Counted from the stretch's first letter, positions 22,402 to 62,760 are shown. The stretch: 64,000 nt of DNA from Patescibacteria group bacterium (GCA_022564195.1 JADFLW010000007.1:3667-67666), one strand, 5' to 3'. The notes: generated from the sequence alone by a model not told the origin. Program-made: numbers and translations.

Positions 22402-23133
22402 TTAATCGACAAGTGCGGCGGTGATAATGCCCCGACGAAGATATGTTCCTGGTGGCGTGCAGGTTATGAGACGAAGATATTCGTTGTCATACGGTTGTTC
22501 TAACACGGAGATGTCGTCCGGTTTAACTTCGACTTTATCTATCACCTGATACGTGTAGGTTATGCCGTCGAATTTGACGATGATCTCATCGCCCATCTCG
22601 AGCGTGGGGATGAGGGAAAAGATTGCCATATAATTGGTTGGGCTGAAGAACTGAGGCAGGATGGAATGGCCGAAAATAACCGGTGCTCCAGTTTCCCCCG
22701 GAAGCGCGGTTCCGGGGTAGTGGATAAGGCTTTTTTTTAGATCCTCTCCATTTATTTCTACAACAGCATCTTTGATGTTGAATTTTGGAATCGAAAGGGT
22801 GTAATGGGTAATTCGGGATTCCGTCTTTCTGGAAAATTTGGCTTTCGGAAACCAATTTTGTGGACGAGTCAAATCCTGGTTGATCGTGCTTTCCAAGCTG
22901 TCCTCTTTTCCTGAAACTGGAACAGGGCTTAAAAATTCATACTGTTTCAGAGTGGGAGCAGTGAAGAGTTCATAGGAGAGAATCGGCCATAGCACATTTG
23001 CAACCAGCACTATTCCGGATATGATCAGGCCTCTAGATAGTACAGACATCAATCTCGAACTGACTCTGACCTTCCGACTTGTCTTCGGGCTTGCTGTTTG
23101 CGGATGGGCTTTGACGTAACGGTACAATGTCAT
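22402..23133 (-). CDS. sortase (transpeptidase)
   Basis: N-terminal membrane anchor, catalytic His (VIFGHS), the TLxTC-type motif LRLITCTPPG, and a downstream Arg (LRRGII). Confidence 0.8.
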   Translation of the reverse strand: MTLYRYVKAHPQTASPKTSRKVRVSSRLMSVLSRGLIISGIVLVANVLWPILSYELFTAPTLKQYEFLSPVPVSGKEDSLESTINQDLTRPQNWFPKAKFSRKTESRITHYTLSIPKFNIKDAVVEINGEDLKKSLIHYPGTALPGETGAPVIFGHSILPQFFSPTNYMAIFSLIPTLEMGDEIIVKFDGITYTYQVIDKVEVKPDDISVLEQPYDNEYLRLITCTPPGTYLRRGIITAALVD

Positions 23134-50825: not shown

Positions 50826-51425
50826 ATGGCTGCCCGCAGACCGAATATTGATCTTTTGGCCCGAGAAGACTTCTCTCAACGCGCCCTTGGTCGTTTATTG
50901 CTTTGGGTTCTGACAGTCGGACGCTTCATTGTCATTTTTACGGAGCTTATCGTCATTGCTGGTTTCATTACCAGAGTTTTTCTTGATCGAAACCTTCATT
51001 CCGTCAACGAGGATCTTGTTGAGCAAAAAACGATTCTTGCCTCCTATCAACCTGTGGACCTTCGTTTCCGTCAAGTCCACCAGCAACTTCAATCGTATTC
51101 TCGCATTAATGAAGATCGGTTTGACATTTCAAAACTGTTGGATGATCTGATTACAATCGCGCCTCTTGATATGCGTTTTGAATCTTTGCATATAGATCCG
51201 CAGTCCGTGGATATTGTCGCCATTGCGCTTTCTCCAAGTGGCTTTTCGGCGTTTTTGACCCAACTCCAAGCGTTTCCAGACTTTAGCGATTTGGTTTTGG
51301 AATCTGTCGAAACTGGCAGTGCCCGAGATCCAAGCATCAAGTTTCGACTTACTGCGGACTTTAAGATCGCGGCAGTTCCAACCAGACCCGCGGAGACAAA
51401 TGTTTCTGGAGAAGCTATTGAGTAA
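50826..51425 (+). CDS. pilN: type IV pilus assembly protein PilN-like
   Basis: N-terminal PNIDLLAREDF, which resembles the INLLP motif. A single TM helix is followed by an extracytoplasmic domain; 199 aa. Confidence 0.6.
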   Translation: MAARRPNIDLLAREDFSQRALGRLLLWVLTVGRFIVIFTELIVIAGFITRVFLDRNLHSVNEDLVEQKTILASYQPVDLRFRQVHQQLQSYSRINEDRFDISKLLDDLITIAPLDMRFESLHIDPQSVDIVAIALSPSGFSAFLTQLQAFPDFSDLVLESVETGSARDPSIKFRLTADFKIAAVPTRPAETNVSGEAIE

Positions 51426-51436
51426 GGAGATTTGTT

Positions 51437-52099
51437 ATGGCTGCTGACTATCAGAAAACCTTCCGGCGCTATGGTCGTTTTTACAAAGGCGCGCGTAAGT
51501 ATATGCAGCGGAAGGAGGTTCTTGTTTCGACGAATGTCATGCTCACCCTTTTCGCCATTTCGTTCTTTGCGGTTTTTGCTATTCGGCCTACGGCATTGAC
51601 GATATCCAGGCTTTGGAGAGAAATTAAAGACAAAAAAACCGTTCAAGCAGTGCTTGAGGAGAAGATTGGTGATCTTTTAGAAGCGCAATCAGTACTAGTA
51701 TCGCTAGAGAATGATCTGGTTCTCCTTGATCATGCTATCCCTCCCACTGTGGAATTTTCTCGGCTGGTGCGTCTCGTCGAATACCTTGCTTCTACTCATG
51801 GATTGCAGATGCCTTCCAACCGTTTCAATGACATCGAGCTCTATGTTTCAGAAGAGACCGCGACCGCGTCTGCGGCGCAGATTGAAACACATTTGTTTAC
51901 CCTGGCGCTGAAGGGGTCATTTTCCGAGATACGGTCATTTGTTGCTGATCTTGAACGACTCGATCGCTTAATTTCCATCACCTCTGTTTCTGTCCAGCCC
52001 TCAAGAAAACAGGTGCGTGAAGGTGTCTTTATCTTAGAACTAGGATTGGATGCCGAGGCTTATTCATTTCCTGGAGGATCTCAATTAGACCAACAATAA
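51437..52099 (+). CDS. pilO: type IV pilus assembly protein PilO-like
   Basis: A TM helix, a coiled coil, and a C-terminal domain; its size and position follow pilN. Confidence 0.5.
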   Translation: MAADYQKTFRRYGRFYKGARKYMQRKEVLVSTNVMLTLFAISFFAVFAIRPTALTISRLWREIKDKKTVQAVLEEKIGDLLEAQSVLVSLENDLVLLDHAIPPTVEFSRLVRLVEYLASTHGLQMPSNRFNDIELYVSEETATASAAQIETHLFTLALKGSFSEIRSFVADLERLDRLISITSVSVQPSRKQVREGVFILELGLDAEAYSFPGGSQLDQQ

Positions 52100-52108
52100 T
52101 ACCAGGTT

Positions 52109-52453
52109 ATGCCATCACGCGACCGCCTACAACGCCAGCTCTTGGAACTTTCCATTGTCACGCTTGTGACTATTATCATCTGGACAGGCTATGAGGTTTA
52201 TAATGCACTCACCCAGCCAGTTGAGACGAGGGTGACGAAAGCTGAACTTCAACCCCTTCCTTCTTCATTGGATCTTGAACAGTTCGATCCATTGCGGGAT
52301 CGCCTTGTCATTGATGATGAGGCGATCGCTCGCTTTTCTTTTTCCTCCGATGAATTCCCTGAGGCCCCGGTAGTGCCAACTCCAACACCAACCGCTCCTT
52401 CCCCGGAAGCTACCCCTTCCTCCGAGGCCACACCTTCCGCCTCAACTCCATAA
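52109..52453 (+). CDS. small membrane protein with a Pro/Thr/Ser-rich C-terminal tail (pilus- or glycosylation-associated)
   Basis: An N-terminal TM helix (LELSIVTLVTIIIWTGY); the C-terminus is PTPTPTAPSPEATPSSEATPSASTP. Confidence 0.45.
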   Translation: MPSRDRLQRQLLELSIVTLVTIIIWTGYEVYNALTQPVETRVTKAELQPLPSSLDLEQFDPLRDRLVIDDEAIARFSFSSDEFPEAPVVPTPTPTAPSPEATPSSEATPSASTP

Positions 52454-52490
52454 ATGCCCAGTACCTTTCTCAATTTGCAGTTGAGAAAGG

Positions 52491-53297
52491 TTGAGGTTTA
52501 GTGCTAGGATTATTTCGATGCTGAAGAAACGGATCCCCACCATTCTTGGAATTCTCTTACTTATGGCGGGGATCACTGCTGGTGTTTATCTCGTTGAACT
52601 TGGTCCGCAACCACTCATCACCAAAGCCACTCCGGAAGTTGCTCCATCCCCACTTCCCGTTACCGATATTTCTGATGAGCCTGCCGGATCTGAAAGCCAA
52701 TTCTCCTTGGAATCTTTTCCGCAACCTTCAGTCGAAGAAGGCACAGTTACCATTGACTCACCCGGAGAAGGAGAGGCGATTAATACCCAACTTCCAGAGT
52801 TCTTTGGTGAAGGGCCCCCGGGAACAACGATAGAAATTACCCTTGAATCCCAGCACGAAATCCAAACCACAGTCGCCGTTGATACCACTGGGCAATGGTC
52901 ATGGGTTCCTGATACTGCCGTCGAGCCTGGTGAACACCTCCTGACCCTCAGATGGATCGATACAGGAGGCATTACTCGCACACTCACTCGGCGGTTCGTG
53001 GTTTTTGCGCAAGAAGAGAGCTCTCTGCCCGCCTTTGAAGCAACGCCTTCTGCTGTAACCCCCACTCCCACACCCGTTGAGCTTGCCGCTGTTACCCCAA
53101 CGCCAACCCCAATACCCACGCTGGCACCTGCCGCAACGCCGACTCCCATCCCCCCGACTCTTACACCTACGCCGGTGGCCACTGAGCCCGCACTTCCCGT
53201 TCCGGGAACGGGAATGCTAAGCGTTTGGATTATTTTTGCTGGTATTGGCCTTGCTATTTCGGGGGCTTTCCTTACGCTTCACAACCGAACGTCCTGA
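52491..53297 (+). CDS. surface protein with an Ig-like middle domain, a Pro/Thr-rich stalk and a C-terminal sorting-signal-like segment
   Basis: N-terminal signal/anchor; the PT-rich tract is TPTPTPVELAAVTPTPTPIPTLAPAATPTPIPPTLTPTPV. The C-terminus reads LPVPGTG, then a hydrophobic helix (MLSVWIIFAGIGLAISGAFLTL), then HNRTS. Confidence 0.55.
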   Translation: MRFSARIISMLKKRIPTILGILLLMAGITAGVYLVELGPQPLITKATPEVAPSPLPVTDISDEPAGSESQFSLESFPQPSVEEGTVTIDSPGEGEAINTQLPEFFGEGPPGTTIEITLESQHEIQTTVAVDTTGQWSWVPDTAVEPGEHLLTLRWIDTGGITRTLTRRFVVFAQEESSLPAFEATPSAVTPTPTPVELAAVTPTPTPIPTLAPAATPTPIPPTLTPTPVATEPALPVPGTGMLSVWIIFAGIGLAISGAFLTLHNRTS

Positions 53298-53417
53298 TCC
53301 ACTCGCTCTCCCTTCCTTTTGGCTGTTACAATACCTCTATCCACCTTTTCCCGACAAGCTTGCGCTGTTGGGATTCGGAGGATCTCGCATAATTTGTAGA
53401 ATGATAAGAGGAGCTCG

Positions 53418-54686
53418 ATGCGCGTAGGGATCGTTGGTGCTGGATTTGTCGGCTTGACTTGTGCATATCGGCTGGCACAAGCGGGTGTCGAAGTCGAGCT
53501 CTATGAGGCCGCAAGCCACAGCGGAGGTTTAGCCAGTGGGTTCTCTCTTCCCGGATGGAAGTGGCCACTGGAGCAATTCTACCATCATATCTTTTCCAAT
53601 GATCGCGCAATCATCCGTCTTTCTCGCGAAGTTGGCTGGCCTCCGATTTTTTTCCGACCGACAACCTCCATCTTTTTCAATGGTCGGATGTATCCGTTTG
53701 ACTCGGCTTTCCATCTTCTCCGCTTTCCTCAGCTTCCCCTCCATGCGAAGCTTCGCATGGGTATCGTGCTCGGGTTTCTTAAGCTTTCCCCGTTTTGGAA
53801 GCCCCTTGAGCGTATCCCGGCACATGACTTTTTGATTCAGACAATGGGTGTTCGTGGTTATGAGGCAATTTGGCAGCCCCTTTTGGTTGGCAAGTTCGGT
53901 CCTTGGGCCCGCGACGTTAATGCCGCATGGTTTTGGGCAAGGATTCATAAACGGACTGCGCGGTTAGGATATTTCCGTCGCGGTTTTCAGGGACTGGCTA
54001 ATCGACTCCATGAATCCATCGTAAACAATGGAGGCGGTATTCATCTTCACTCACCCGTTTCAGCCATCCGTAAAGCAGGCGCACATCTTGCCCTTTCCTC
54101 AACGTTGGGAACGGAGCGATTCGATCGAGTCATCGTCACGACGAGTACGCCGCTGTTTTTAAAGATGGTTAAGGGCTTGCCGAGCCGTTATCGATCGCGG
54201 CTTGGGCGGCTGCGGTCTCTGGATGCGTTGGTGGTGATCCTCATTCTTAAAACACCGGTTATGGATGGTGTGTATTGGCTGAATGTTACTGACCAGCGTC
54301 TTCCCTTTGTGGGAGTGATGGAGCACACGAATATGATTGACCCGAAATACTATGGCGGAAATCACATTGTCTATCTTGGCACGTATCTTCCTCCCGACCA
54401 CCGATACTTTCTGCTGTCGAAAGATGCAGTTGTCCGGTTGGCTATACAGCAACTTAAAGCACTCACACGGAATTTTGACGAATCCGATATCGTGGAAACT
54501 CGCGTCCATCGCGGGCGTGGAGCCCAACCTATTATTCCTGTCAACTATTCTCGACTTCGTCCAACGATGGAAACGCCAATTGATCATCTTTTCCTTGCAA
54601 ATATGAGCCTGGTCTATCCATGGGATCGCGGGACGAATTATGCCGTCGAGTTAGGGGAAAGGGCCTACCGGACTCTACTTTCATGA
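53418..54686 (+). CDS. FAD/NAD(P)-binding oxidoreductase of the Glf/amine-oxidase superfamily (UDP-galactopyranose mutase-like)
   Basis: Rossmann N-terminus (RVGIVGAGFVGLTCAYRLAQAG). HHIFSNDRAI resembles the HIFHTNDK motif of Glf. GYEAIWQ resembles GYTEKQW. Confidence 0.5.
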   Translation: MRVGIVGAGFVGLTCAYRLAQAGVEVELYEAASHSGGLASGFSLPGWKWPLEQFYHHIFSNDRAIIRLSREVGWPPIFFRPTTSIFFNGRMYPFDSAFHLLRFPQLPLHAKLRMGIVLGFLKLSPFWKPLERIPAHDFLIQTMGVRGYEAIWQPLLVGKFGPWARDVNAAWFWARIHKRTARLGYFRRGFQGLANRLHESIVNNGGGIHLHSPVSAIRKAGAHLALSSTLGTERFDRVIVTTSTPLFLKMVKGLPSRYRSRLGRLRSLDALVVILILKTPVMDGVYWLNVTDQRLPFVGVMEHTNMIDPKYYGGNHIVYLGTYLPPDHRYFLLSKDAVVRLAIQQLKALTRNFDESDIVETRVHRGRGAQPIIPVNYSRLRPTMETPIDHLFLANMSLVYPWDRGTNYAVELGERAYRTLLS

Positions 54687-56395
54687 AACGTATGGGGCGA
54701 GTGTTTGTTTTTTTTAAGTCTTCTCATTTAAGCCTCTACTCTGCTGGTTTAATTCTCCTCACCGCTTTGGGTGGGTTTTTACGCTTCTATAGCCTTGATT
54801 GGGACTCGGGACTTTTTTTTCATCCAGATGAGCGCAACATTGCCGCTGCTGTCTCGCGGATTCACTTCTTCGATCAACTCGATCCCGGTTTTTTCGCTTA
54901 TGGTGGACTGCTCATCTATACCTATAGAGCTGTGGGTGAGCTTGTCTCCTTCATTACTCAAGATCCCTCTTGGGTCTCTTCATGGGGCAATATCAACATC
55001 ATAGGACGGTTTACATCGGCACTTTTTTCAACCTTGACTATTCCTGCTGTGTACCTGCTCACAAGAACCGTGTTTGAAAAGAAGATTCTTGCTCTTTTTG
55101 CAAGCTTGATCGCGGCTTTTACTGTGAGCTTTATCCAAACCGCCCATTATGCAACGACTGAGAGTCTTTTGACTTTCCTTTCCGTTGTCCTCGCTCTTTT
55201 ATCACTTCGGTTGCTCAGAAGACCCACTCTTCCGTCTTATCTTGTCTGTGGGCTTGTTTATGGACTGGCAGTGGCAACCAAAATGAGCGGTTTGTCAATT
55301 CTTGTCTTTCCACTTACCGCCCATCTTCTTGTCGTTTTTGGTCAAGCGCGCAGCTTGCGAGTGTTTTTTCATAACGGTTTGTTGCTGATTGCTTTTCTTG
55401 CGATCAGCGGTCTTGTTTTTGTTGTTTTTTCTCCCTATACGTTTTTGGACTGGGGTGCTTTTATGGAGTCGATGCGCTATGAATCAAGGGTGGCAACAGG
55501 GAAATACTCCGTCCCTTACACCCTGCAATTCACCCATACACTGCCGTACCTATTCCAGCTAAAAAATCTGTTTTGGCAACTGGGGCCTATTGCTTTCTTC
55601 TCCATCTTTGGATTCGTCCTGCTTCCCTTCGTTTGGGGCCGTAGAAATCCTGCGAAGCTTCTACTCTTTTTTTCCTTTCCGACCATCTATTTTCTTTATG
55701 TCGGTTCCTGGCATGCCAAATTCATCCGTTTCATGGTTCCGATTTTGCCATTCTTGATTATTGCTGCAAGTGTTGTGCTTTTTTCTCTTTACTCAAGACG
55801 GAAGCTTGTTGGAGGTGGGTTCATCGTTTTGCTTTCAGTTTCGACCGTTCTTTGGGCCCTTGCCTTTTTCTCCATCTATAGAAGAGAACAAACACGTATT
55901 GCGGCATCAAGATGGATATACCAACATATTCCTTCTGGCAGCAGGATCTTCGGCGAGCATTGGGATGACGGTCTGCCGGTTTCTTTACCTCACTCGGATC
56001 TCTCTCCCTCTCGATATGATATCGAGCAACTCACCATCTACGAGCCCGATACCGAAGAAAAGCTTGACTACTTTGCAGAAAAATTGTCTCTGGCCGATTA
56101 CCTTGTGATTAACAGCAGAAGGCTTTATGGCACCTTGATTCATCTAGAAGAGCGCTATCCTCTCACGAGTCGGTACTACAGCCTTTTATTCTCCGGGAAG
56201 CTTGGGTACGAGAAAGTGGCGGAATTTACCTCTTACCCGTCTCTCTTTGGGGTGACGATCAATGACGATGCAAGTGAGGAGACGTTCCAAGTCTATGATC
56301 ATCCAAAAGTCATGATCTTTGCCAAAACGAGACTGCAGACCCAAGATCGTTTCGCTGAACTGCTTCGTGATGAGGTGTTCCCGACCCTTCGGTAA
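54683..56395 (+). CDS. GT-C fold glycosyltransferase, PMT_2/ArnT-like (GT39/GT83-type, polyprenyl-phosphate-sugar dependent)
   Basis: Multi-pass membrane protein with an FFHPDERN first-loop acidic motif. Its ATG overlaps the upstream stop codon (ATGA). Confidence 0.6.
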   Translation: MKRMGRVFVFFKSSHLSLYSAGLILLTALGGFLRFYSLDWDSGLFFHPDERNIAAAVSRIHFFDQLDPGFFAYGGLLIYTYRAVGELVSFITQDPSWVSSWGNINIIGRFTSALFSTLTIPAVYLLTRTVFEKKILALFASLIAAFTVSFIQTAHYATTESLLTFLSVVLALLSLRLLRRPTLPSYLVCGLVYGLAVATKMSGLSILVFPLTAHLLVVFGQARSLRVFFHNGLLLIAFLAISGLVFVVFSPYTFLDWGAFMESMRYESRVATGKYSVPYTLQFTHTLPYLFQLKNLFWQLGPIAFFSIFGFVLLPFVWGRRNPAKLLLFFSFPTIYFLYVGSWHAKFIRFMVPILPFLIIAASVVLFSLYSRRKLVGGGFIVLLSVSTVLWALAFFSIYRREQTRIAASRWIYQHIPSGSRIFGEHWDDGLPVSLPHSDLSPSRYDIEQLTIYEPDTEEKLDYFAEKLSLADYLVINSRRLYGTLIHLEERYPLTSRYYSLLFSGKLGYEKVAEFTSYPSLFGVTINDDASEETFQVYDHPKVMIFAKTRLQTQDRFAELLRDEVFPTLR

Positions 56396-56406
56396 CGAGC
56401 GTTTTT

Positions 56407-58554
56407 TTGACCGCTTTGCATCTTTCATCTTCCTCTATACAATATGTGGGCATTCGTATGCATGAGCTGGTGAATACATTTTCCTGGTGGGCTGTTCTTT
56501 CCGGTCTTGGGATTTTGGCCTTTCCTATCACCTATTGGCTGTTTGGTCGATTTTGGGATCGTGGCTGGGCATTTGCAAAGATCTTAGGGCTTGGGCTGCT
56601 CACGTACTGGGTGTGGATTGTGGGAAGTTTGCGAATTCTTGCATTCGAAACATTCACCCTCTGGATTGGTATTGTTCTTATTGGATATCTTTCCTATCTC
56701 GTTTGGTCCAAGCATCAAGAATCTTTATGGAATTTTGTTCAGGATCATTGGCGTTTGATCGTGTTTGAGGAGTTCCTTTTTGGTATCGGTCTCTTGTTCT
56801 GGTCTTGGGTGCGGGCTCATCAGCCGGACATCAATGGCCTTGAAAAATTCATGGATTTCGGATTTGTCAATTCTCTTTTACGTACACGCTTCTTTCCTCC
56901 GCCCGATATGTGGCTAGCGGGGGAGACCATCAACTATTACTACTTCGGACATCTAGTAGTTGGGGTTGTTACCAAACTCTCAGGGATTTCCTCGGCTGTG
57001 ACGTATAACCTTATGATCGCCACTCTTCTGGGACTTGCTTTTACCGGGGCTTTTTCCTTGGGCGGAACATTGGCTCAGCACGTCATTCCGACTTTGACAC
57101 GGAAGCGGCGATTCAGCTTCATGATTCTGGCTGGTTTGACTTCTGGATTGGTGTTCACGTTCGCTGGCAATTTACACACTGTTGTCACCGTCATCTCCAA
57201 GGGAGCTGATTCATACTGGTACCCCGATGCCACTCGCTACATTCCCTACACCATCCACGAGTTCCCGCTCTACAGCTTCGTTGTTTCGGATTTGCATGGC
57301 CATGTTAACAATATTCCCTTTGTCCTTTTGATGCTGGCACTTTTGCTTAGCTTTCTTCTGGAACATGGAAATCGGTGGCGTTTTTCTTTCCGTTCGCCAT
57401 CGGTCTATTGGCGCTTGATTGCCTTGGGTCTGACGTTTGGGATTCTTTACATGACCAACGCCATGGACGCGCCAATTTATCTTTTTCTTGTTGGTATGAG
57501 CTTTCTTGTTTCGATAATTGGCAAGCGTCCATTAAAAAAAGCTGTTTTGGCCTCCGGGCTCGCTTTTGGGATCATTGTGTTCTCTGCTTTCGTCCTTTCT
57601 CTTCCGTTTCATCTTTCTTTTACCCCTTTCACTCAAGGTGTTGCTTTCGTGGAGGCTCGTTCTTCCATCCTGAAGCTTTTGGTTCTGTGGGGTTTCTTTT
57701 TATTTGTCGGTTTGGTGTTTGTTCTTCTTGTTCTCCAACAACGTTTCCAGCGCCATTCTCGCAAGCCTTTTCTCAATGTCTTGCTTCGTCGGTTCATGCT
57801 TGCTGTCTTTGCAACCGCAGTTGTCTTGGTCGTCATTCCAGAATTTGTTTACTTCAAAGACATCTATATTGCTGAATTTCATCGGGCGAATACGATGTTC
57901 AAATTGGTGTATCAGTCTTTCGTTCTGATGTCTTTGATGACAGGGCCAGTGTTTGTTGTGTTGCTCTGGCGTTTTACCACTTCAAGTGGTCGGCTTTTGC
58001 GCTTTGGGCTTTTGGCTTTGGTTTTCGCATTTATTGTTGGCTTGGGGAGTGTGTTGATGTACCCGTATTTTGCGGTGCACTCCTACTACAATCGCCTGCA
58101 AACGCTTCAGGGTCTCGATGGTCTATCTTGGATGGCGCGTCGCTATCCTGATGATTATGCTGCTATTTCTTGGCTGCGTGATGAGGTTTCCGGTCAACCG
58201 GTTATCGCGGAAGCCGTGGGCGAGAGTTATACCGATTTTGCGCGGGTTTCGGCGAATACCGGATTACCCACGGTTCTCGGGTGGCGGGTGCACGAATGGT
58301 TGTGGAGAGGCAGCTTTGATGAGCCGGGCCTTCGCACGGGTGAGGTTGAGAGGCTTTATACCACAGCGGATCTCCACGATGCCTGTGCCATTATTGAAAA
58401 GTATAGGATTGCGTATGTTTTCGTTGGTGCTTTGGAGCGCCAACAATACTCTAGACTCAATGAAGACAAGTTTAGCCGGATTGGAAACGAAGTGTTCTCT
58501 CAAGGAGATACACGGATTTATAGGATGCGCACTCCTTGTGGTGTCTCTTCCTAG
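56407..58554 (+). CDS. DUF2298 (Chlor_Arch_YYY) domain membrane protein, GT-C-like
   Basis: 715 aa, highly hydrophobic, with the hallmark INYYYFGH motif and a C-terminal soluble domain. Confidence 0.6.
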   Translation: MTALHLSSSSIQYVGIRMHELVNTFSWWAVLSGLGILAFPITYWLFGRFWDRGWAFAKILGLGLLTYWVWIVGSLRILAFETFTLWIGIVLIGYLSYLVWSKHQESLWNFVQDHWRLIVFEEFLFGIGLLFWSWVRAHQPDINGLEKFMDFGFVNSLLRTRFFPPPDMWLAGETINYYYFGHLVVGVVTKLSGISSAVTYNLMIATLLGLAFTGAFSLGGTLAQHVIPTLTRKRRFSFMILAGLTSGLVFTFAGNLHTVVTVISKGADSYWYPDATRYIPYTIHEFPLYSFVVSDLHGHVNNIPFVLLMLALLLSFLLEHGNRWRFSFRSPSVYWRLIALGLTFGILYMTNAMDAPIYLFLVGMSFLVSIIGKRPLKKAVLASGLAFGIIVFSAFVLSLPFHLSFTPFTQGVAFVEARSSILKLLVLWGFFLFVGLVFVLLVLQQRFQRHSRKPFLNVLLRRFMLAVFATAVVLVVIPEFVYFKDIYIAEFHRANTMFKLVYQSFVLMSLMTGPVFVVLLWRFTTSSGRLLRFGLLALVFAFIVGLGSVLMYPYFAVHSYYNRLQTLQGLDGLSWMARRYPDDYAAISWLRDEVSGQPVIAEAVGESYTDFARVSANTGLPTVLGWRVHEWLWRGSFDEPGLRTGEVERLYTTADLHDACAIIEKYRIAYVFVGALERQQYSRLNEDKFSRIGNEVFSQGDTRIYRMRTPCGVSS

Positions 58555-59642
58555 TTCGCGTTGCTGGTCATGTTTTCGTAGAATAATGAGTCCACGTAGC
58601 TGTGGACCTCGTCCCAACTCCCGCCTCTACCAATGAGCACCCATTGTCCATCATATTCTGCCGGTGGCGGATTGACGAGTAGGCCCTCTTCTCCAGTTTC
58701 CTGGTCTTGCTCCTTAAGAATACCGTATCGCAGGTTTTCTCTCCGGGGTTGTATGGCAAGTTTGGCAAGGCTTACGTATTCGGCTTCACCAAGATCCGTC
58801 CTTACTGATCCTGTGTATGTTTGGACTAACTCTTTGATTTTTGTCGGAGAGAGTATGGTTTCCAAACTCAGTAGCTTGTTTTTGAATGCCGCGAGTACTT
58901 GCTGTTGGCGTTGAGCGCGGGCAAAGTCTGTTCCCTGAGGTCCCTTAGCGTTGCGGGATCGAACGTACTTTAAGGCTCGCTCTCCACTCATGTTTTGTGA
59001 ACCGCTATCGAAGCGCAGATGTTCGTAGCGAAGCTCCTCGGGCTCTGCGTCTTCCATCCCGGGGATGGGATATTTGTAATCGTCAAAGGTTTCGGGAACA
59101 TTGATTTTTATCCCTCCAACGAGATCGATGGCGTGTTTGAAGCCGTCAAAATCGATGCTGACCGCGTAATGGACGGGTTGGCCAATGATCTCTTCCACCG
59201 CAGCTTTAGCAAGCACCAGTCCCCCGCCTTCTTGTCTCTGCTCGCCGTAGTAGTAGGTCGCGTTTATCTTGGTTTTCAATGAATTGATCCAGATATCCCT
59301 CGGGATTGAGAGAACCAGGCTGTCGGTTGAGGCTAAATCGACTGAGACGACGATGATGCTATCGGTCAACTCTGCTCCTTTGTGATCAACACCGCCCATT
59401 CCCAACAGTACGATATTCGTTCTTGAGCGGGTTGAGCGGAGCACACCTTCCGGATTCTTCACTAGAGAAAAGACAGTTGCCGGTCCGCGGGCAAGCTTTA
59501 CTACCATGGTCAATGCGGGTCGGATCGCCGCATAGACAGCAACGATCACCGCTGCCAGTGTGGTTGTTACGATCAGCGTGCGTACCGCGGTTCGGTGTCT
59601 CGTTAAGCGTCGTTTCAGCTTTCCTACCCAGTACTTTCTCAT
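58551..59642 (-). CDS. LCP family (LytR-CpsA-Psr) glycopolymer phosphotransferase
   Basis: TM anchor followed by NIVLLGMGGVD...SIIVVSVD...LSIPRD...KINATYYYG...VSIDFDGFKHAIDLVGGIKINV, the LCP core. The likely ATG at 59642 forms an ATGA overlap with the tpiA stop. Confidence 0.85.
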   Translation of the reverse strand: MRKYWVGKLKRRLTRHRTAVRTLIVTTTLAAVIVAVYAAIRPALTMVVKLARGPATVFSLVKNPEGVLRSTRSRTNIVLLGMGGVDHKGAELTDSIIVVSVDLASTDSLVLSIPRDIWINSLKTKINATYYYGEQRQEGGGLVLAKAAVEEIIGQPVHYAVSIDFDGFKHAIDLVGGIKINVPETFDDYKYPIPGMEDAEPEELRYEHLRFDSGSQNMSGERALKYVRSRNAKGPQGTDFARAQRQQQVLAAFKNKLLSLETILSPTKIKELVQTYTGSVRTDLGEAEYVSLAKLAIQPRRENLRYGILKEQDQETGEEGLLVNPPPAEYDGQWVLIGRGGSWDEVHSYVDSLFYENMTSNAN

Positions 59643-60361
59643 GGTGTTTCTGTGGTCTTTATTATCGTCTGGTTGGCCATTCTTATCATCTTCAGCCATT
59701 CTGCGGCGTTGAGACTTGCGCTTCCCGGAAGAACGCCGTCAATGAGCGGTTCTTCTAAAAATATGGCAATGTTGTGGCTTTTCACACTGCCTCCGTAGAT
59801 CACGGTTGGGGCCTCCGTCTCTTTTTTTATTTTGACTATAGCTTCTTTCACTTCATCAATTGGCGCTGGCTCTCCTTTCCCGATGGGGCCGATTTGCTTG
59901 CTGATTGCCTCGGGGGGCTCGTACATGAGTATTGACTTATTGATCATCCCCTCATCCAGTGCATTCAGCTGTCGTCTCCAGTTGTCTGCGTCTACGGCAA
60001 TGATGGGGGTAATGCCGTTATCAAGTGCTTGAACGGCTTTCTGCGCTACTTTAATCTCGGTTTCTTGGAAATAGCGGCGGCGTTCCGAATGCCCCAAAAT
60101 TGTGTATTCTACCAAACTCCTCATCATGCGGGCGGTTACTTGGCCGGTGTAGGCTCCATCACCATAGGGTGAAAGATCCTGGCAGCCGAGAGTGAGTTCT
60201 GACATCTGGTCTCTGAAAAGCGTGAGGTGGATGAAGGATGGGCAGAGCACCACTTTCAATCGTTTATCAATTGTGGGTTTCTCCTTCTTCACCTCCTCAA
60301 TCCAGGAACGGGCCTCTTTTAGGGTTTTGTTTGCCTTCCAGTTGCCGATGAGGTATTTCAT
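59639..60361 (-). CDS. tpiA: triosephosphate isomerase
   Basis: GNWKAN, GHSERR and YEPPEAI motifs are present. The likely ATG is at 60361; the track begins at a TTG at 60370. Confidence 0.9.
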   Translation of the reverse strand: MKYLIGNWKANKTLKEARSWIEEVKKEKPTIDKRLKVVLCPSFIHLTLFRDQMSELTLGCQDLSPYGDGAYTGQVTARMMRSLVEYTILGHSERRRYFQETEIKVAQKAVQALDNGITPIIAVDADNWRRQLNALDEGMINKSILMYEPPEAISKQIGPIGKGEPAPIDEVKEAIVKIKKETEAPTVIYGGSVKSHNIAIFLEEPLIDGVLPGSASLNAAEWLKMIRMANQTIIKTTETP

Positions 60362-60506: not shown

Positions 60507-60785
60507 ATGGCCTCTAAGCGAAGGCAGATTATTCCATTCCCTATGAAGTGGTACCCATCATCTCTTGCAGAAATTGGCAATCAATTTAGAAGACTCTCTC
60601 GGATCATTGTTACGATCCAAAGCACTCTCATCCTCCTCTTGATTTATTATGTGCTACTTACTCCGTTTGGGCTCGTGCTCCAGATAATATACAGGCTGCG
60701 GAATAGAAAGCGGCATACACCTCCATCATATTGGAAGAAACGTGATTTCAAGCAAGACTCGATCAACATCTATCGGCAGTTTTAA
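60507..60785 (+). CDS. SxtJ-like small membrane protein (carbamoyltransferase-associated)
   Basis: 92 aa with one hydrophobic helix, lying immediately upstream of the carbamoyltransferase. The family assignment is from recalled synteny, not an alignment. Confidence 0.4.
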   Translation: MASKRRQIIPFPMKWYPSSLAEIGNQFRRLSRIIVTIQSTLILLLIYYVLLTPFGLVLQIIYRLRNRKRHTPPSYWKKRDFKQDSINIYRQF

Positions 60786-60792
60786 TCCTTGT

Positions 60793-62538
60793 ATGTATAT
60801 CCTCGGGCTTTCTTGCTTCTACCATGACTCGGCTGCTGTATTGGTCCAAGATGGCCGTTTAATCGCTGCGGCACAGGAAGAGCGGTTTACTCGCAGAAAA
60901 CATGATGAACGTTTCCCGCGGAATGCGATTGCTTACTGTCTTGCTGAGGCCGGGGTTGATTCTTCGCAGCTTGATCATGTCGGCTTCTATGAAAAACCTT
61001 TTGTCAAATTCGAAAGGATATTAACTACTTATCTTAACACTGCTCCCAAAGGGCTCCCCTCGTTCTTAACATCCATGCCGTTGTGGCTCAAAGAAAAATT
61101 ATGGATGAAATATCTTATTCAGAAAGAATTGCATTGGGATAACGATATTGTCTTTATTCCACACCACCTGGCTCACGCGGCTAGCGCTTTTTTGGTTTCT
61201 CCGTTCCCGTCAGCGGCAATTCTTACTATCGATGGCGTCGGAGAATGGTCTAGTGCAACGAAGGGTTTTGGCGATGGTCATCGCATTACCCTGACCCATG
61301 AGCTCCGATTCCCCCATTCCTTAGGACTCGTCTACAGCGCTTTCACATACTACTGCGGTTTTAAAGTCAACAGTGGCGAGTACAAATTGATGGGTTTAGC
61401 ACCATATGGCAAACCGAAGTACGTTGGGCTTATTAAGGATCATCTGATTGATATTAAGTCTGATGGGAGTTTTCAACTGAACTTACACTACTTCTCGTAC
61501 GAGTATGGCTTGCGTATGATCAACCGAAAATTTCTTCAGCTTTTCGGCAATCATCCTCCCAGGAAACCTCATGAACCTCTCACCCAGCACCATAAAGATG
61601 TGGCGATGAGTATTCAACAGGTGACAGAAGAGGTTGTTTTAAAAATGGCTACCAGCTTGTATCGAGAGACTGGTAACAGAAACTTGTGTATGGCCGGCGG
61701 TGTGGCGCTTAACTGCGTTGCTAATGGCCGTATCATTCGTGAAACTCACTTTAAAGATTTGTTTATCCAACCAGCAGCAGGTGATGCAGGCGGGGCTTTG
61801 GGAGTTGCTTATTACATCTACAATTGCGTTTTAGAAAACGAAAGAAGTGCTGTTATGGATCACGTTTATTTTGGTCCGGGTTTTAGCAGTCGAGACGTTG
61901 AGCTGTTTCTGAAAAGCAAAAAGGTGAAGTACCGAAAGTTTACTCGTGAAGCTGCGCTGATCAGAGAGGTGGCAAAAAAGATCGCAGCCCAGCGGGTGGT
62001 GGGCTGGTTTCAGGGTCGGATGGAATGGGGACCGCGGGCTTTGGGAAATCGTTCGATATTAGCCGATCCACGGAACCCGGATAACCAGGGTCGTGTCAAT
62101 CGTAAAATCAAATTCAGGGAAGACTTCCGGCCTTTTGCTCCATCTGTGCTTGAGCAGTACAGTGATGTGTATTTTGACCTCGATCGCCCGAGCCCGTTCA
62201 TGCTTTTGGTGGCTCAAGTTCATAAAAACCGCCGGACTATTCCTGCGGTGACGCATGTTGATGGTTCGGCTCGAATCCATACTGTGTCAAAAACACACAA
62301 TTATTTATATTGGCAATTGCTTGAGGAATTTCGTCGCCAAACAGGCTGCCCTGTGCTCATTAATACTTCATTTAATGTTCGCGGTGAACCCATTGTTTGT
62401 ACCCCCGAAGAGGCTTTCAACTGCTTTATGGGTACTGACATGGATGATTTGGCTCTAGGTAATTTTTTGATTCGTAAAGAAGACGTTACGGTAACTCATA
62501 AACACAAGCGCTTCAGGCAGCAATTTGCGCTTGACTGA
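60793..62538 (+). CDS. carbamoyltransferase (NodU/CmcH family)
   Basis: Begins MYILGLSCFYHDSAAVLV...AAQEERFTRRKHD, the N-terminal Kae1/YgjD-like domain of NodU/CmcH O-carbamoyltransferases, and has a C-terminal carbamoyltransferase domain; 581 aa from the ATG at 60793. Confidence 0.8.
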   Translation: MYILGLSCFYHDSAAVLVQDGRLIAAAQEERFTRRKHDERFPRNAIAYCLAEAGVDSSQLDHVGFYEKPFVKFERILTTYLNTAPKGLPSFLTSMPLWLKEKLWMKYLIQKELHWDNDIVFIPHHLAHAASAFLVSPFPSAAILTIDGVGEWSSATKGFGDGHRITLTHELRFPHSLGLVYSAFTYYCGFKVNSGEYKLMGLAPYGKPKYVGLIKDHLIDIKSDGSFQLNLHYFSYEYGLRMINRKFLQLFGNHPPRKPHEPLTQHHKDVAMSIQQVTEEVVLKMATSLYRETGNRNLCMAGGVALNCVANGRIIRETHFKDLFIQPAAGDAGGALGVAYYIYNCVLENERSAVMDHVYFGPGFSSRDVELFLKSKKVKYRKFTREAALIREVAKKIAAQRVVGWFQGRMEWGPRALGNRSILADPRNPDNQGRVNRKIKFREDFRPFAPSVLEQYSDVYFDLDRPSPFMLLVAQVHKNRRTIPAVTHVDGSARIHTVSKTHNYLYWQLLEEFRRQTGCPVLINTSFNVRGEPIVCTPEEAFNCFMGTDMDDLALGNFLIRKEDVTVTHKHKRFRQQFALD

Positions 62539-62565
62539 TGTGTTTTTTGTGACGACAATATTGTT

Positions 62566-62760
62566 GTGAAAGAGAGGATTGAAGAACATCTTACAGCTGC
62601 TCAACGACGTGGTTCCATTATTCAAGAATTGTTTCAGTTTTTATGGGAAGCTAAGCTGTGGTGGTTGATTCCAATGGTGGTGGTTTTATTGCTTTTCGGA
62701 TTGTTGCTTATTTTTGCAGAAAGCTCTGCGGTGGCTCCGTTTATCTATACTCTTTTTTGA
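62566..62760 (+). CDS. DUF5989-like small membrane protein (SxtK-like)
   Basis: 64 aa whose tail KLWWLIPMVVVLLLFGLLLIFAESSAVAPFIYTLF is, as recalled, the characteristic ending of this family. Confidence 0.5.
   Translation: MKERIEEHLTAAQRRGSIIQELFQFLWEAKLWWLIPMVVVLLLFGLLLIFAESSAVAPFIYTLF

What the first reader, a model, noticed from the sequence alone, without database searches (positions are those of the whole stretch)
52109..58554. Candidate surface-protein O-glycosylation locus: Pro/Thr-rich substrates next to a PMT/ArnT-like GT-C enzyme, a DUF2298 YYY protein and a Glf-like flavoenzyme
Two consecutive genes encode membrane or surface proteins with long Pro/Thr/Ser tracts (PTPTPTAPSPEATPSSEATPSASTP and TPTPTPVEL...TPTPIPPTLTPTPV). 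In Actinobacteria such tracts are the acceptors for PMT-family (GT39) protein O-mannosyltransferases. Immediately downstream and translationally coupled (ATGA overlap) are three genes: a Glf-like FAD oxidoreductase (HHIFSNDRAI, which would make a furanose nucleotide sugar such as UDP-Galf), a PMT_2/ArnT-like GT-C transferase (FFHPDERN), and a 715-aa DUF2298 protein carrying the NYYYFGH motif whose function is unknown. An LCP ligase and a NodU-type carbamoyltransferase lie within 2 kb. In a CPR-like genome of this kind, a substrate-adjacent GT-C glycosylation cassette is not a described system.
Basis: partly seen in the sequence, partly recalled or inferred. Interest (0 to 1): 0.78.

Follow-up and report, generated by a model that had tools for sequence, protein, structure and literature searches.

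The report
Envelope glycosylation gene cassette in Microgenomates
A conserved gene cluster in a tiny uncultured (CPR/Microgenomates) bacterium encodes two membrane sugar-transferases of the GT-C type, one of them the previously uncharacterised DUF2298 family, plus a flavoenzyme that is not the proposed Glf; they sit beside two Pro/Thr-rich surface proteins that may be their targets, but that link is not shown.

Summary
The two P/T tracts are the densest in the window. The PMT_2 GT-C enzyme, the DUF2298 "YYY" protein, the LCP ligase and the carbamoyltransferase are all confirmed.

Corrections:
- **Flavoenzyme:** it is not Glf. It belongs to the amine-oxidase/PRK07233 family, and its model matches protoporphyrinogen oxidase, phytoene desaturase and MAO.
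- **Translational coupling:** only the flavoenzyme/GT-C junction has an ATGA overlap.

New results:
- **Gene order:** PilN-PilO-small protein-Big_13 protein-[flavoenzyme or DPPR-synthase-like UbiA]-GT-C(1-4)-DUF2298 recurs across about 85 Microgenomates loci.
- **P/T tracts:** they are a wall-spanning stalk ahead of a sortase-type signal, and a C-terminal disordered tail.
- **Outside CPR:** the GT-C+DUF2298 pair persists in Lachnospiraceae without P/T-rich neighbours. There it sits beside polyprenyl-P-sugar-synthase-like GT2 genes, and once beside a genuine Glf.

The acceptor remains open: protein stalks (about 0.4) or a wall glycopolymer (about 0.35). Substrate-adjacent GT-C O-glycosylation is already described (the S. 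mutans pgf cluster). I rate this a new variant of a known kind, of moderate interest.

The parts
50826..51425 (+). PilN-like bitopic protein; first gene of the co-oriented run
   Evidence: Pfam PilN E 1.7e-08. Present upstream in most Microgenomates loci.
51437..52099 (+). PilO-like protein
   Evidence: Pfam PilO E 6.4e-08. Always paired with PilN and Big_13 in related loci.
52109..52453 (+). Small bitopic membrane protein with a C-terminal S/T/P-rich disordered tail. It is a candidate glycosylation acceptor.
   Evidence: No Pfam or NCBIfam hit. Has an N-terminal hydrophobic segment. Its P+T density is 14/25, second highest in the window. Most of the 13 distinct homologous loci keep an S/T/P-rich tail (10 have at least 40% S/T/P) while the tail sequence itself differs.
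52491..53297 (+). Big_13 surface protein: signal anchor, Ig-like domain, P/T-rich stalk, then a C-terminal LPVPGTG + TM + basic tail (sortase-type sorting signal). The likely true start is the ATG at 52518 (MLKKRIPT).
   Evidence: Pfam Big_13 E 1.1e-07. P+T density 18/25, the highest in the window, and the only ORF with a [LIVM]Px[TSAP]G + hydrophobic C-terminus. Most homologues carry an [LIV]Px[TSA]G-like signal such as LPPTGN, IPKTGN, LPATGS or LPDAGS, followed by a TM segment and a basic tail.
53418..54686 (+). FAD-dependent oxidoreductase of the amine-oxidase / PRK07233 family (PPOX / phytoene-desaturase-like fold). It is not Glf. The inferred role is tailoring of the lipid-linked donor or its carrier.
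   Evidence: Amino_oxidase 6.2e-27, NAD_binding_8, PRK07233 417.7 bits, no GLF hit. AF2 pLDDT 95. Foldseek top hits are CgoX/PPOX, phytoene desaturase (TMq 0.85) and MAO, with no UGM in the top 50. Homology to a genuine UGM covers only the N-terminal ~230 aa.
54683..56395 (+). GT-C glycosyltransferase, PMT_2 type (about 570 aa). It has a conserved HPDE motif in the first extracytoplasmic loop and a C-terminal soluble domain.
   Evidence: PMT_2 3.6e-10 and PMT 6.1e-08, no PMT_4TMC. ATGA overlap with the flavoenzyme stop codon. HPDE is >=95% conserved in 60 homologues. hhalign to the paralogues: GTC2 98.4%, GTCx 96.8%.
56458..58554 (+). DUF2298 / Chlor_Arch_YYY protein (698 aa). This is a second GT-C-fold glycosyltransferase with about 14 TM helices and an ArnT/OST-type C-terminal extracytoplasmic domain.
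58551..59699 (-). LCP (LytR-CpsA-Psr) phosphotransferase, convergent with DUF2298 and overlapping it by 4 nt
   Evidence: PF03816 3.7e-31 and TIGR00350. Adjacent in 25 of 29 flavoenzyme-type loci and in 0 of 25 UbiA-type loci.
60742..62538 (+). NodU/CmcH-type carbamoyltransferase. It is a lineage-specific neighbour and not part of the conserved cassette.
   Evidence: Carbam_trans_N 6.9e-97 and Carbam_trans_C 2.2e-72. Found only in the window and the Chisholmbacteria loci L001/L002.
22402..23133 (-). Sortase, about 30 kb away. It is a candidate enzyme for anchoring the Big_13 protein.
   Evidence: Pfam Sortase 2e-23.

Best explanation
The region 53418-58554 is an extracytoplasmic glycosylation cassette.

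- **Enzymes:** two GT-C-fold membrane glycosyltransferases, the PMT_2-type enzyme and the DUF2298/YYY enzyme. [quoted passage not shown]
- **Flavoenzyme:** the PPOX/phytoene-desaturase-like flavoenzyme is translationally coupled to the first GT-C. It sits where related clusters carry a donor-supply gene: a DPPR-synthase-like UbiA, an ArnC/PgfS-like GT2, or a true Glf. I infer that it tailors the lipid-linked donor or its carrier. Its substrate is unknown.
- **Acceptor I commit to:** the S/T/P-rich extracytoplasmic regions of the two co-oriented upstream proteins. These are the stalk of the sortase-type Big_13 protein and the tail of the small bitopic protein. Other such regions in the proteome are probably modified too. 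This would be a Pgf/PgtC2-like O-glycosylation of disordered Ser/Thr-rich regions, not a PMT+Glf pathway.

**Shown:** gene content, family and fold assignments, synteny, and the composition of the tracts.

**Inferred:** donor type, flavoenzyme role, acceptor identity, and sortase anchoring.
For: **Fold and family**
- Profile comparison links DUF2298, GTCx, the PMT_2-type GTC1 and the Agl23-like GTC2.
- Acidic loop motifs are conserved: HPDE in the GT-C; E129/D133 in LEKFMDFGF and the NYYYFGH motif in DUF2298.

**Donor type (comparative)**
- L095 reads GTCx-GT2-DUF2298.
- L096 reads GT2 (PgfS/ArnC-like)-GTCx-UGM-GT2 (PpgS/ArnC/AglJ-like)-DUF2298.
- Microgenomates sister loci carry a UbiA scoring 194 bits to decaprenyl-phosphate phosphoribosyltransferase at the position of the flavoenzyme.

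**Acceptor**
- The two densest P/T tracts of the 64-kb window are encoded immediately upstream on the same strand.
- Big_13 lies directly upstream of the first cassette gene in 42 of 67 loci, usually under 100 nt away.
- In L060 and L086 it lies 7 nt from DUF2298 itself.
- The S/T/P-rich stalk or tail is conserved in composition across most homologues.

**Precedents**
- Streptococcal GT-A + GT-C enzymes glycosylate extracytoplasmic Ser/Thr-rich IDRs, and the pgf cluster encodes its own adhesin substrates (10.1101/2024.05.05.592596).
- TfpW, a GT-C, O-arabinosylates pilin using a DPPR-synthase pathway (10.1101/2020.04.19.049825).
- LcpA glycosylates an LPXTG protein (PMC6381275).
Against: - Adjacency is weak evidence here. 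The same gene order also includes S20, TIM, UvrD and FemAB.
- In L069, Big_13 moves with PilO while DUF2298 stays with UvrD/FemAB.
- The GT-C+DUF2298 pair is conserved in Lachnospiraceae without any P/T-rich neighbour.
- On a Pseudobutyrivibrio plasmid, DUF2298 lies inside a polysaccharide locus.
- P/T-rich stalks ahead of sorting signals have a purely structural, wall-spanning explanation.
- No ArnC-like GT2 or flippase lies within 10 kb in 85 Microgenomates loci, so the donor is unknown.
- Arrays of 2-5 GT-C paralogues look more like polymer assembly lines.
- No expression or glycan data exist.
Confidence: 0.4

Rival explanations
1. [quoted passage not shown] The adjacent LCP enzyme then ligates it to peptidoglycan. 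This is analogous to the mycobacterial Emb/Aft/Mpt lines, or to CsbB-YfhO teichoic-acid glycosylation. Under this reading the P/T-rich proteins are pilus- or wall-associated neighbours with no substrate relationship.
For: - LCP is convergent and overlapping in the window, and adjacent in 25 of 29 flavoenzyme-type loci.
- Neighbours across the loci include MurJ, FemAB, Bac_transf, Wzy_C, GT2, GT4 and Alg13/14-like genes.
- DUF2298 on the Pseudobutyrivibrio plasmid pNP95 sits among WecB, GT2, DegT, O-antigen-ligase-family and CapD-like genes.
- There are 2-5 GT-C paralogues per locus.
- A DPPR-synthase-like UbiA in sister loci recalls the arabinan donor pathway.
- The Lachnospiraceae pairs have no P/T-rich neighbour.
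Against: - UbiA-type loci lack an adjacent LCP in 0 of 25 cases.
- LCP enzymes can also glycosylate a sortase substrate (PMC6381275).
- DUF2298 also occurs in an archaeon, which has no peptidoglycan (Halarchaeum hit).
- The tight same-strand packing with Big_13 is left unexplained.
Confidence: 0.35
2. The gene order is inherited synteny with no shared pathway. PilN-PilO-small-Big_13 is a pilus or envelope module. The flavoenzyme is a general lipid or isoprenoid enzyme. The GT-Cs glycosylate something else, such as membrane glycolipids, or act partly as lipid-linked-sugar translocators as proposed for Agl23.
For: - Housekeeping genes (S20, TIM, UvrD) are part of the same conserved order.
- Flavoenzyme homologues at 45-49% identity in Chloroflexi lie in unrelated contexts with no GT-C or DUF2298.
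- Agl23, a GT-C-like protein of the TIGR03663 family, translocates lipid-linked glycans in vitro (PMC11182771).
- A paralogue in L007 weakly matches TIGR03663.
Against: - The flavoenzyme and the GT-C are translationally coupled.
- The flavoenzyme or UbiA consistently occupies the slot directly in front of the GT-Cs.
- The GT-C+DUF2298 pairing is conserved across phyla.
Confidence: 0.15
3. One reading: a PMT (GT39) protein O-mannosyltransferase, plus a Glf that makes UDP-galactofuranose, glycosylates the P/T tracts.
For: - PMT and PMT_2 hits, and a DE motif in loop 1.
- The HIFxND motif resembles UGM, with 25% identity over the N-terminal 207 aa to a genuine UGM.
- A genuine UGM does occur in a distant DUF2298 cluster (L096).
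Against: - No GLF/TIGR00031 match, and the fold is PPOX/PDS/MAO-like.
- Homology to UGM stops at about residue 230.
- No PMT_4TMC domain, and the PMT_2 hit is generic to many GT-C families.
Confidence: 0.03

Closest known systems
Streptococcal Pgf and GtrB/PgtC2 systems (GT-A Und-P-sugar synthase plus YfhO-type GT-C; the pgf cluster also encodes the Cnm/CnaB/CbpA adhesins)
   Same: - A GT-C acts outside the membrane.
- The acceptors are extracytoplasmic Ser/Thr-rich disordered regions of membrane-anchored proteins and LPXTG wall-anchored proteins.
- Enzymes and substrates can be encoded side by side (10.1101/2024.05.05.592596).
   Different: - The GT-C families differ. Here they are PMT_2-type and DUF2298, not YfhO, and no NCBIfam Pgf model was hit.
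- No GT-A lipid-P-sugar synthase is present in the cassette.
- A PPOX-like flavoenzyme is present instead.
- The tracts are Pro/Thr-rich rather than Ser/Thr-rich.
- Nothing has been shown experimentally.
Mycobacterial / P. aeruginosa decaprenyl-phospho-arabinose pathway with GT-C transferases (UbiA Rv3806c, DprE1/DprE2, Emb/Aft; TfpW for pilin)
   Same: - Arrays of GT-C enzymes sit next to donor-supply genes.
- Sister Microgenomates loci carry a DPPR-synthase-like UbiA (194 bits), and two loci read flavoenzyme-UbiA-GT-C.
- TfpW glycosylates a pilus protein on Ser/Thr.
   Different: - The window has no UbiA.
- Its flavoenzyme has the amine-oxidase fold, not the DprE1 (FAD_binding_4) fold.
- No DprE2-like reductase is present.
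- Big_13 is not a pilin.
TIGR03662 (Chlor_Arch_YYY) / TIGR03663 (Agl23) gene pair of Chloroflexi and Archaea
   Same: - The DUF2298 protein is a full member of TIGR03662 (535.6 bits).
- It pairs with PMT-like GT-C paralogues, one of which weakly matches TIGR03663.
- Agl23 is implicated in the use of Dol-P-hexose for N- and O-glycans (PMC11182771, citing Lu 2020).
   Different: - The window's own GT-C does not reach TIGR03663.
- The statement that the two TIGRFAMs were defined as neighbours rests on my memory of the model text, not on a tool result.
Oligosaccharyltransferases STT3/AglB/PglB
   Different: - No sequence similarity.
- There is no WWDYG motif. The conserved C-terminal motifs are EAVGESYT and GWxVHEWLWRG.
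- ArnT-type enzymes also have a similar periplasmic domain (my recollection), so the resemblance is not OST-specific.
Actinomyces oris LcpA-GspA
   Same: An LCP enzyme, a sortase-type wall-anchored protein and a glycan pathway occur together (PMC6381275).
   Different: - No evidence here that the LCP touches the Big_13 protein.
- LCP is absent from the UbiA-type variants of the cassette.

Membership tests
UDP-galactopyranose mutase (Glf) | GLF domain (PF03275) / TIGR00031 equivalog match | tested here: not met
   - No GLF hit at E<=0.01.
- TIGR00031 is not among the 25 best of 45 NCBIfam hits shown.
- The best hits are Amino_oxidase and PRK07233 at 417.7 bits.
- A genuine UGM from L096 scores 382 bits on TIGR00031.
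UDP-galactopyranose mutase (Glf) | Overall fold closest to UGM | tested here: not met
   - The Foldseek top 50 are PPOX/CgoX, phytoene desaturase and MAO (TMq 0.76-0.85), with no UGM.
- hhalign to UGM covers only columns 2-233.
UDP-galactopyranose mutase (Glf) | N-terminal FAD-binding Rossmann domain with the GxGxxG and HIFxxND region | tested here: met
   - 25% identity over residues 5-204 with a genuine UGM, E 9e-6.
- This region is shared by the whole superfamily.
GT39 protein O-mannosyltransferase (PMT) | PMT / PMT_2 N-terminal transmembrane domain above the Pfam threshold, with an acidic DE motif in loop 1 | tested here: met
   - PMT_2 scores 40.7 bits (cutoff 26.1) and PMT 33.0 bits (cutoff 22.7).
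- HPDE is >=95% conserved in 60 homologues.
GT39 protein O-mannosyltransferase (PMT) | C-terminal PMT_4TMC domain (and MIR domains in eukaryotes) | tested here: not met
   No PMT_4TMC or MIR hit at E<=0.01. The C-terminus is instead a soluble domain shared with the local GT-C paralogues.
GT39 protein O-mannosyltransferase (PMT) | Uses polyprenyl-P-mannose to mannosylate Ser/Thr | not testable with these tools
   Needs biochemistry.
DUF2298 / TIGR03662 Chlor_Arch_YYY | HMM match above the curated cutoff, plus the YYYxG motif | tested here: met
   - PF10060 scores 340.8 bits and TIGR03662 535.6 bits against a cutoff of 300.25.
- N159-Y160-Y161-Y162-F163-G164-H165 are invariant in 43 sequences.
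GT-C fold glycosyltransferases (assignment of DUF2298) | Multi-pass core superposable on solved GT-C enzymes | tested here: met
- Foldseek significant hits are all GT-C enzymes.
GT-C fold glycosyltransferases (assignment of DUF2298) | Conserved acidic residue(s) in an extracytoplasmic loop next to the conserved module | tested here: inconclusive
   - E129 and D133 (LEKFMDFGF) and D150 are invariant.
- D133 aligns with the D of SDF in GTCx.
- The extracytoplasmic location rests on my manual topology count from the AF2 secondary structure. It was not superposed on a catalytic Asp.
Oligosaccharyltransferase STT3/AglB/PglB | WWDYG motif in the C-terminal domain | tested here: not met
   - No WWDYG in the window protein or in the family consensus.
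- No sequence hit to any OST in the PDB.
Sortase substrate (cell-wall sorting signal) | LPXTG-type motif, hydrophobic segment, basic tail at the C-terminus, and a sortase in the genome | tested here: inconclusive
   - The window protein ends ...LPVPGTG-MLSVWIIFAGIGLAISGAFLTL-HNRTS, which is a variant motif.
- Most homologues carry an [LIV]Px[TSA]G-type motif such as LPPTGN, IPKTGN, LPATGS or LPDAGS.
- A sortase gene lies at 22402-23133.
- Cleavage was not tested.
Three-component lipid-P-sugar glycosylation systems (GT2 synthase + flippase + GT-C; e.g. ArnC/ArnT, CsbB/YfhO, PgfS/PgfM1) | ArnC/GtrB-like GT2 encoded with the GT-C | tested here: not met
   - None lies in the window cassette or within 10 kb of DUF2298 in 85 Microgenomates loci.
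- It is present in the Firmicute relatives L095 and L096.
LCP (LytR-CpsA-Psr) | LCP domain HMM above cutoff | tested here: met
   PF03816 scores 108.8 bits and TIGR00350 95.5 bits against a cutoff of 62.3.

The most novel reading that the evidence does not exclude
DUF2298/YYY proteins, with their GTCx paralogues, are an unrecognised and widely distributed family of GT-C protein glycosyltransferases. They occur in CPR and Firmicutes and have at least one archaeal hit, and they have an OST-like C-terminal domain. In Microgenomates they would O-glycosylate the Pro/Thr-rich wall-spanning stalks of sortase-anchored, PilN/PilO-linked surface proteins. The donor would be a lipid-linked sugar tailored by a new PPOX-like flavoenzyme, or a polyprenyl-P-pentose in the UbiA-type variants.
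Probability: 0.2. Interest if true: 0.75.

Novelty: new variant of a known kind. Interest (0 to 1): 0.45.

Why it matters
- CPR/Patescibacteria envelopes and the surface molecules they use to attach to hosts are almost unknown. A core, conserved multi-GT-C cassette next to pilus-assembly genes and a wall-anchored stalk protein is a concrete handle on that surface chemistry.
- Assigning DUF2298, a family with thousands of members and no function, to the GT-C fold gives it a testable role.
- The same GT-C+DUF2298 pair occurs in cultivable Lachnospiraceae: a Blautia and Pseudobutyrivibrio xylanivorans MA3014. This makes the question experimentally tractable outside CPR.
- The flavoenzyme is a lead to a new donor-tailoring step. 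It is 45-49% identical between CPR and Chloroflexi. In this locus type its slot is filled in other clusters by a DPPR-synthase-like UbiA, and related Firmicute clusters carry GT2 synthases and once a true Glf.

Tried and rejected
- **PDB sequence searches.** Searches with DUF2298 (single sequence and profile) and with the GT-C found nothing useful. Only structure comparison worked.
- **Literature.** DUF2298 returned 2 irrelevant papers. A polyprenol-reductase/phytoene-desaturase link returned none. GT-C or OST in CPR returned nothing relevant. Lu 2020 on Agl22/23 is not held.
- **Glf hypothesis.** Rejected by HMM, fold search and profile alignment.
- **WWDYG-like motif.** A possible HWDDG in the GT-C C-terminal domain is not conserved; only E446 and P453 are.
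- **Chloroflexi flavoenzyme homologues.** Three loci were uninformative and had no GT-C or DUF2298.
- **Genome-contig scan.** It returned only Microgenomates, because the best 80 hits are kept. Distant DUF2298 contexts had to be reached through a plasmid tblastn hit.
- **Halarchaeum hit.** It lies at the origin of a circular record with no gene annotated under it, so it gave no usable context.
- **AFDB fold library.** Not available.
- **Promoter/terminator scan.** Counts were near shuffle expectation and do not define operon boundaries.
- **Not used.** The search of protein representatives and the metagenome scan, because both keep only the nearest relatives.

Full report
**1. What is in the sequence**

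Between 50.8 and 58.6 kb the plus strand carries a run of co-oriented genes:
- PilN-like (50826-51425) and PilO-like (51437-52099).
- A 114-aa bitopic protein with no family hit (52109-52453).
- A 268-aa Big_13 Ig-like surface protein (52491-53297).
- A 422-aa flavoprotein (53418-54686).
- A PMT_2-type GT-C protein. The listed ORF starts at 54620; the likely start is the ATG at 54683. It ends at 56395.
- A DUF2298/TIGR03662 "YYY" protein. The listed ORF starts at 56407. The database homologue P0001 starts at MHELV, position 56458. It ends at 58554.

An LCP gene (58551-59699) converges on DUF2298 with a 4-nt overlap. TIM and a NodU-type carbamoyltransferase follow.

The two P/T tracts are not chance. 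Their P+T density in 25-residue windows (18/25 and 14/25) ranks first and second among all 419 ORFs of at least 60 aa in the window.

The rest of the window is housekeeping: ribosomal proteins, EF-Tu/G, RNAP, DnaK/J, IF-2 and so on. It also holds one sortase, at 22402-23133. The organism is a Microgenomates-type CPR bacterium; the closest relatives of the cassette are Chisholmbacteria.

**2. Corrections to the observation**

Only the flavoenzyme/GT-C junction is an ATGA overlap, at 54683-54686. GT-C to DUF2298 is separated by 11-62 nt. Big_13 to the flavoenzyme is separated by 120 nt.

**3. The flavoenzyme is not Glf**

- It matches Amino_oxidase (6e-27) and the NCBIfam model PRK07233 (417.7 bits against a cutoff of 252). 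It has no GLF domain.
- A high-confidence model (pLDDT 95) is closest to coproporphyrinogen and protoporphyrinogen oxidases, plant phytoene desaturase (TMq 0.85) and monoamine oxidases. No UGM appears in the top 50 of 1178 significant matches.
- A genuine UGM, found by accident in a distant DUF2298 cluster (L096; TIGR00031 382 bits), aligns with it only over the N-terminal ~230 residues. BLASTP gives 25% identity, E 9e-6. hhalign gives 87.7% probability.
- The family is 45-49% identical between CPR and Chloroflexi. Three Chloroflexi contexts show no GT-C or DUF2298.
- Its substrate is unknown. The fold family acts largely on hydrophobic tetrapyrrole or isoprenoid substrates, which is compatible with a lipid-linked substrate but does not prove one.

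**4. DUF2298 is a GT-C glycosyltransferase**

- *Sequence.* Nothing in the PDB is found by sequence. Profile-profile comparison ties DUF2298 to an unannotated paralogue, which I call GTCx, at 98.5% (E 3.9e-15, 516 columns). GTCx links to the window's PMT_2 enzyme at 96.8%, and that enzyme links to an Agl23-like paralogue at 98.4%.
- *Motifs.* Invariant residues include E129 and D133 in LEKFMDFGF, PPxDxW, NYYYFGH, WYPDATR, HEFPxYS...DLHGH, and a C-terminal GWxVHEWLWRG. There is no WWDYG motif, so it is not a canonical OST.

**5. Comparative genomics**

*Gene order.* Eighty GTDB loci plus five (after dropping two redundant copies) of seven found by exact-protein look-up show a strongly conserved order:

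MurJ - S20 - PilN - PilO - (small protein) - Big_13 - [flavoenzyme or UbiA] - 0 to 4 further GT-C paralogues - (GT4) - DUF2298 - (LCP) - (TIM) - UvrD - FemAB.

*Two variants of the cassette.*
- The flavoenzyme type usually has the LCP (25 of 29 loci).
- The UbiA type never has it (0 of 25).
- The UbiA scores 194 bits against decaprenyl-phosphate phosphoribosyltransferase, just under the 207-bit cutoff.
- Two loci read flavoenzyme-UbiA-GT-C.

*Link to Big_13.* Big_13 is directly upstream of the first cassette gene in 42 of 67 evaluable loci, usually under 100 nt away. In two loci (L060 and L086) it is 7 nt from DUF2298 itself.

*Outside CPR.*
- DUF2298 (31% identity) lies in a polysaccharide locus on a Pseudobutyrivibrio xylanivorans plasmid.
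- In Lachnospiraceae chromosomes it overlaps a ~670-aa, 12-13-TM protein that is a GTCx homologue (E 2.6e-58).
- L095 inserts a small GT2 between the two genes.
- L096 reads GT2 (PgfS/ArnC-like) - GTCx - genuine UGM - GT2 (PpgS/ArnC/AglJ-like) - DUF2298.
- None of these loci has a P/T-rich ORF within 9-12 kb.

**6. The P/T-rich proteins**

The Big_13 family has a fixed architecture:
- a signal anchor,
- an optional Fn3-like domain,
- the Big_13 domain,
- a P/T-rich stalk,
- a C-terminal [LIV]Px[TSA]G-like motif (LPPTGN, IPKTGN, LPATGS, LPDAGS; LPVPGTG in the window's clade),
- a hydrophobic segment and a basic tail.

This is a sortase-type sorting signal, and the window encodes a sortase. The stalk therefore already has an ordinary explanation as a wall-spanning linker.

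The small protein keeps an S/T/P-rich C-terminal tail in most of its 13 distinct homologous loci, while the tail sequence differs between them. That is the class of extracytoplasmic disordered region shown to be O-glycosylated by GT-C enzymes in streptococci (10.1101/2024.05.05.592596).

**7. Mechanism**

*Shown:*
- Two GT-C enzymes.
- A coupled flavoenzyme in the slot that other variants fill with donor-supply enzymes.
- A conserved upstream pair of proteins with S/T/P-rich extracytoplasmic regions.
- A convergent LCP.

*Inferred:*
- The GT-Cs use polyprenyl-phosphate sugars on the outer face. This rests on the fold, the GT2 partners in Firmicutes and the DPPR-synthase-like UbiA in sister loci.
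- The flavoenzyme tailors the donor or carrier.

*The acceptor is open.*
- I put about 0.4 on the S/T/P-rich stalk and tail (Pgf-like protein O-glycosylation).
- I put about 0.35 on a wall glycopolymer ligated by the LCP.
- I put about 0.15 on unrelated functions held together by synteny.
- I put about 0.03 on the PMT+Glf scheme as written.
- A hybrid is possible: the LCP could transfer a GT-C-decorated glycan to the sortase substrate, as LcpA does for GspA (PMC6381275).

*Why adjacency is weak evidence.* The same conserved order includes S20, TIM, UvrD and FemAB. In L069, Big_13 travels with PilO while DUF2298 stays with UvrD/FemAB.

**8. Comparison with known systems and novelty**

- GT-C glycosylation of a pilus protein with a DPPR-synthase pathway is known from TfpW.
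- An association between TIGR03662 and PMT-like TIGR03663 (Agl23) proteins was noted when those models were built. That is my memory, not a tool result.
- Apparently undescribed in the searched literature: the GT-C fold of DUF2298, its paralogy with GTCx and PMT_2 enzymes, the cross-phylum GT-C+DUF2298 module, the Microgenomates-wide cassette coupled to PilN/PilO and a sortase-type stalk protein, and the PPOX-like flavoenzyme in the donor slot. Pfam may already file DUF2298 in its GT-C clan; I could not check.

**9. Verdict**

This is a new variant of a known kind. Interest is moderate (0.45). The best route to a decisive test is through cultivable Lachnospiraceae that carry the same GT-C+DUF2298 pair.

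Noticed in passing
L096:3921-11292 (JGI metagenome contig Ga0153798_10000287): A distant DUF2298 cluster reads GT2 (PgfS/ArnC-like) - GTCx homologue - genuine UDP-galactopyranose mutase (TIGR00031, 382 bits) - GT2 (PpgS/ArnC/AglJ-like) - DUF2298. That is two synthase/GT-C pairs plus a real Glf, which suggests a galactofuranose-containing product there.
   Followed up: partly
L006:1320-2207 and about 25 other loci (e.g. L022, L026, L043): Many Microgenomates replace the flavoenzyme with a UbiA-family protein whose best match is decaprenyl-phosphate phosphoribosyltransferase (194 bits, cutoff 207). Many of them also carry a GT4, and L006 adds a small protein with a very weak acid-phosphatase (HAD) hit (E 0.008). 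These loci never have the adjacent LCP. This hints at a polyprenyl-P-pentose donor pathway in CPR.
   Followed up: partly
window 22402-25475 (- strand): A sortase gene lies immediately downstream of a 781-aa protein with no Pfam hit. By eye, that protein's N-terminal ~270 aa look actin/FtsA/PilM-like. They are followed by a highly charged E/K/P-rich linker, one TM segment and a large extracytoplasmic domain. PilN at 50826 has an N-terminal NIDLL motif but no adjacent PilM.
   Followed up: no
window 60507-62760: The carbamoyltransferase is flanked by a 92-aa membrane ORF (60507-60785, no family hit) and a 64-aa ORF (62566-62760). The latter corresponds in position to the DUF5989 gene called after the carbamoyltransferase in the Chisholmbacteria locus L001. 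From memory, the trio resembles the SxtI/SxtJ/SxtK arrangement. It is present only in this clade.
   Followed up: partly
window 18640-19458 (- strand): A sugar-nucleotidyltransferase (NTP_transferase, 1.3e-27) carries an N-terminal ribbon-helix-helix (CopG) segment (E 3e-4). This is an unusual fusion, if real.
   Followed up: no
L011, L013, L015 and many others of L011-L090: Many contigs that carry this typical Microgenomates cassette are titled 'uncultured Gammaproteobacteria bacterium'. One is titled 'Candidatus Methanoperedens sp.', one 'Lysobacterales' and one 'Acidiferrales'. These public record names look wrong.
   Followed up: no
L008:5158-9353 and L010:6774-10615 (Chloroflexi): In Chloroflexi the flavoenzyme homologue lies about 2 kb from a PpgS/ArnC-like GT2 in L008. 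In L010 it lies directly between an LPG_synthase_TM protein and a UDP-glucose dehydrogenase. These are weak hints that the family works on glycolipid or lipid-linked sugar metabolism.
   Followed up: partly
L040, L067, L027 (Levybacteria-type loci): Up to four further GT-C paralogues stand in tandem upstream of DUF2298 (for example GTC1-GTC1-GTC2-GTC2-DUF2298). This is an unusually dense GT-C array for genomes of about 1 Mb.
   Followed up: partly
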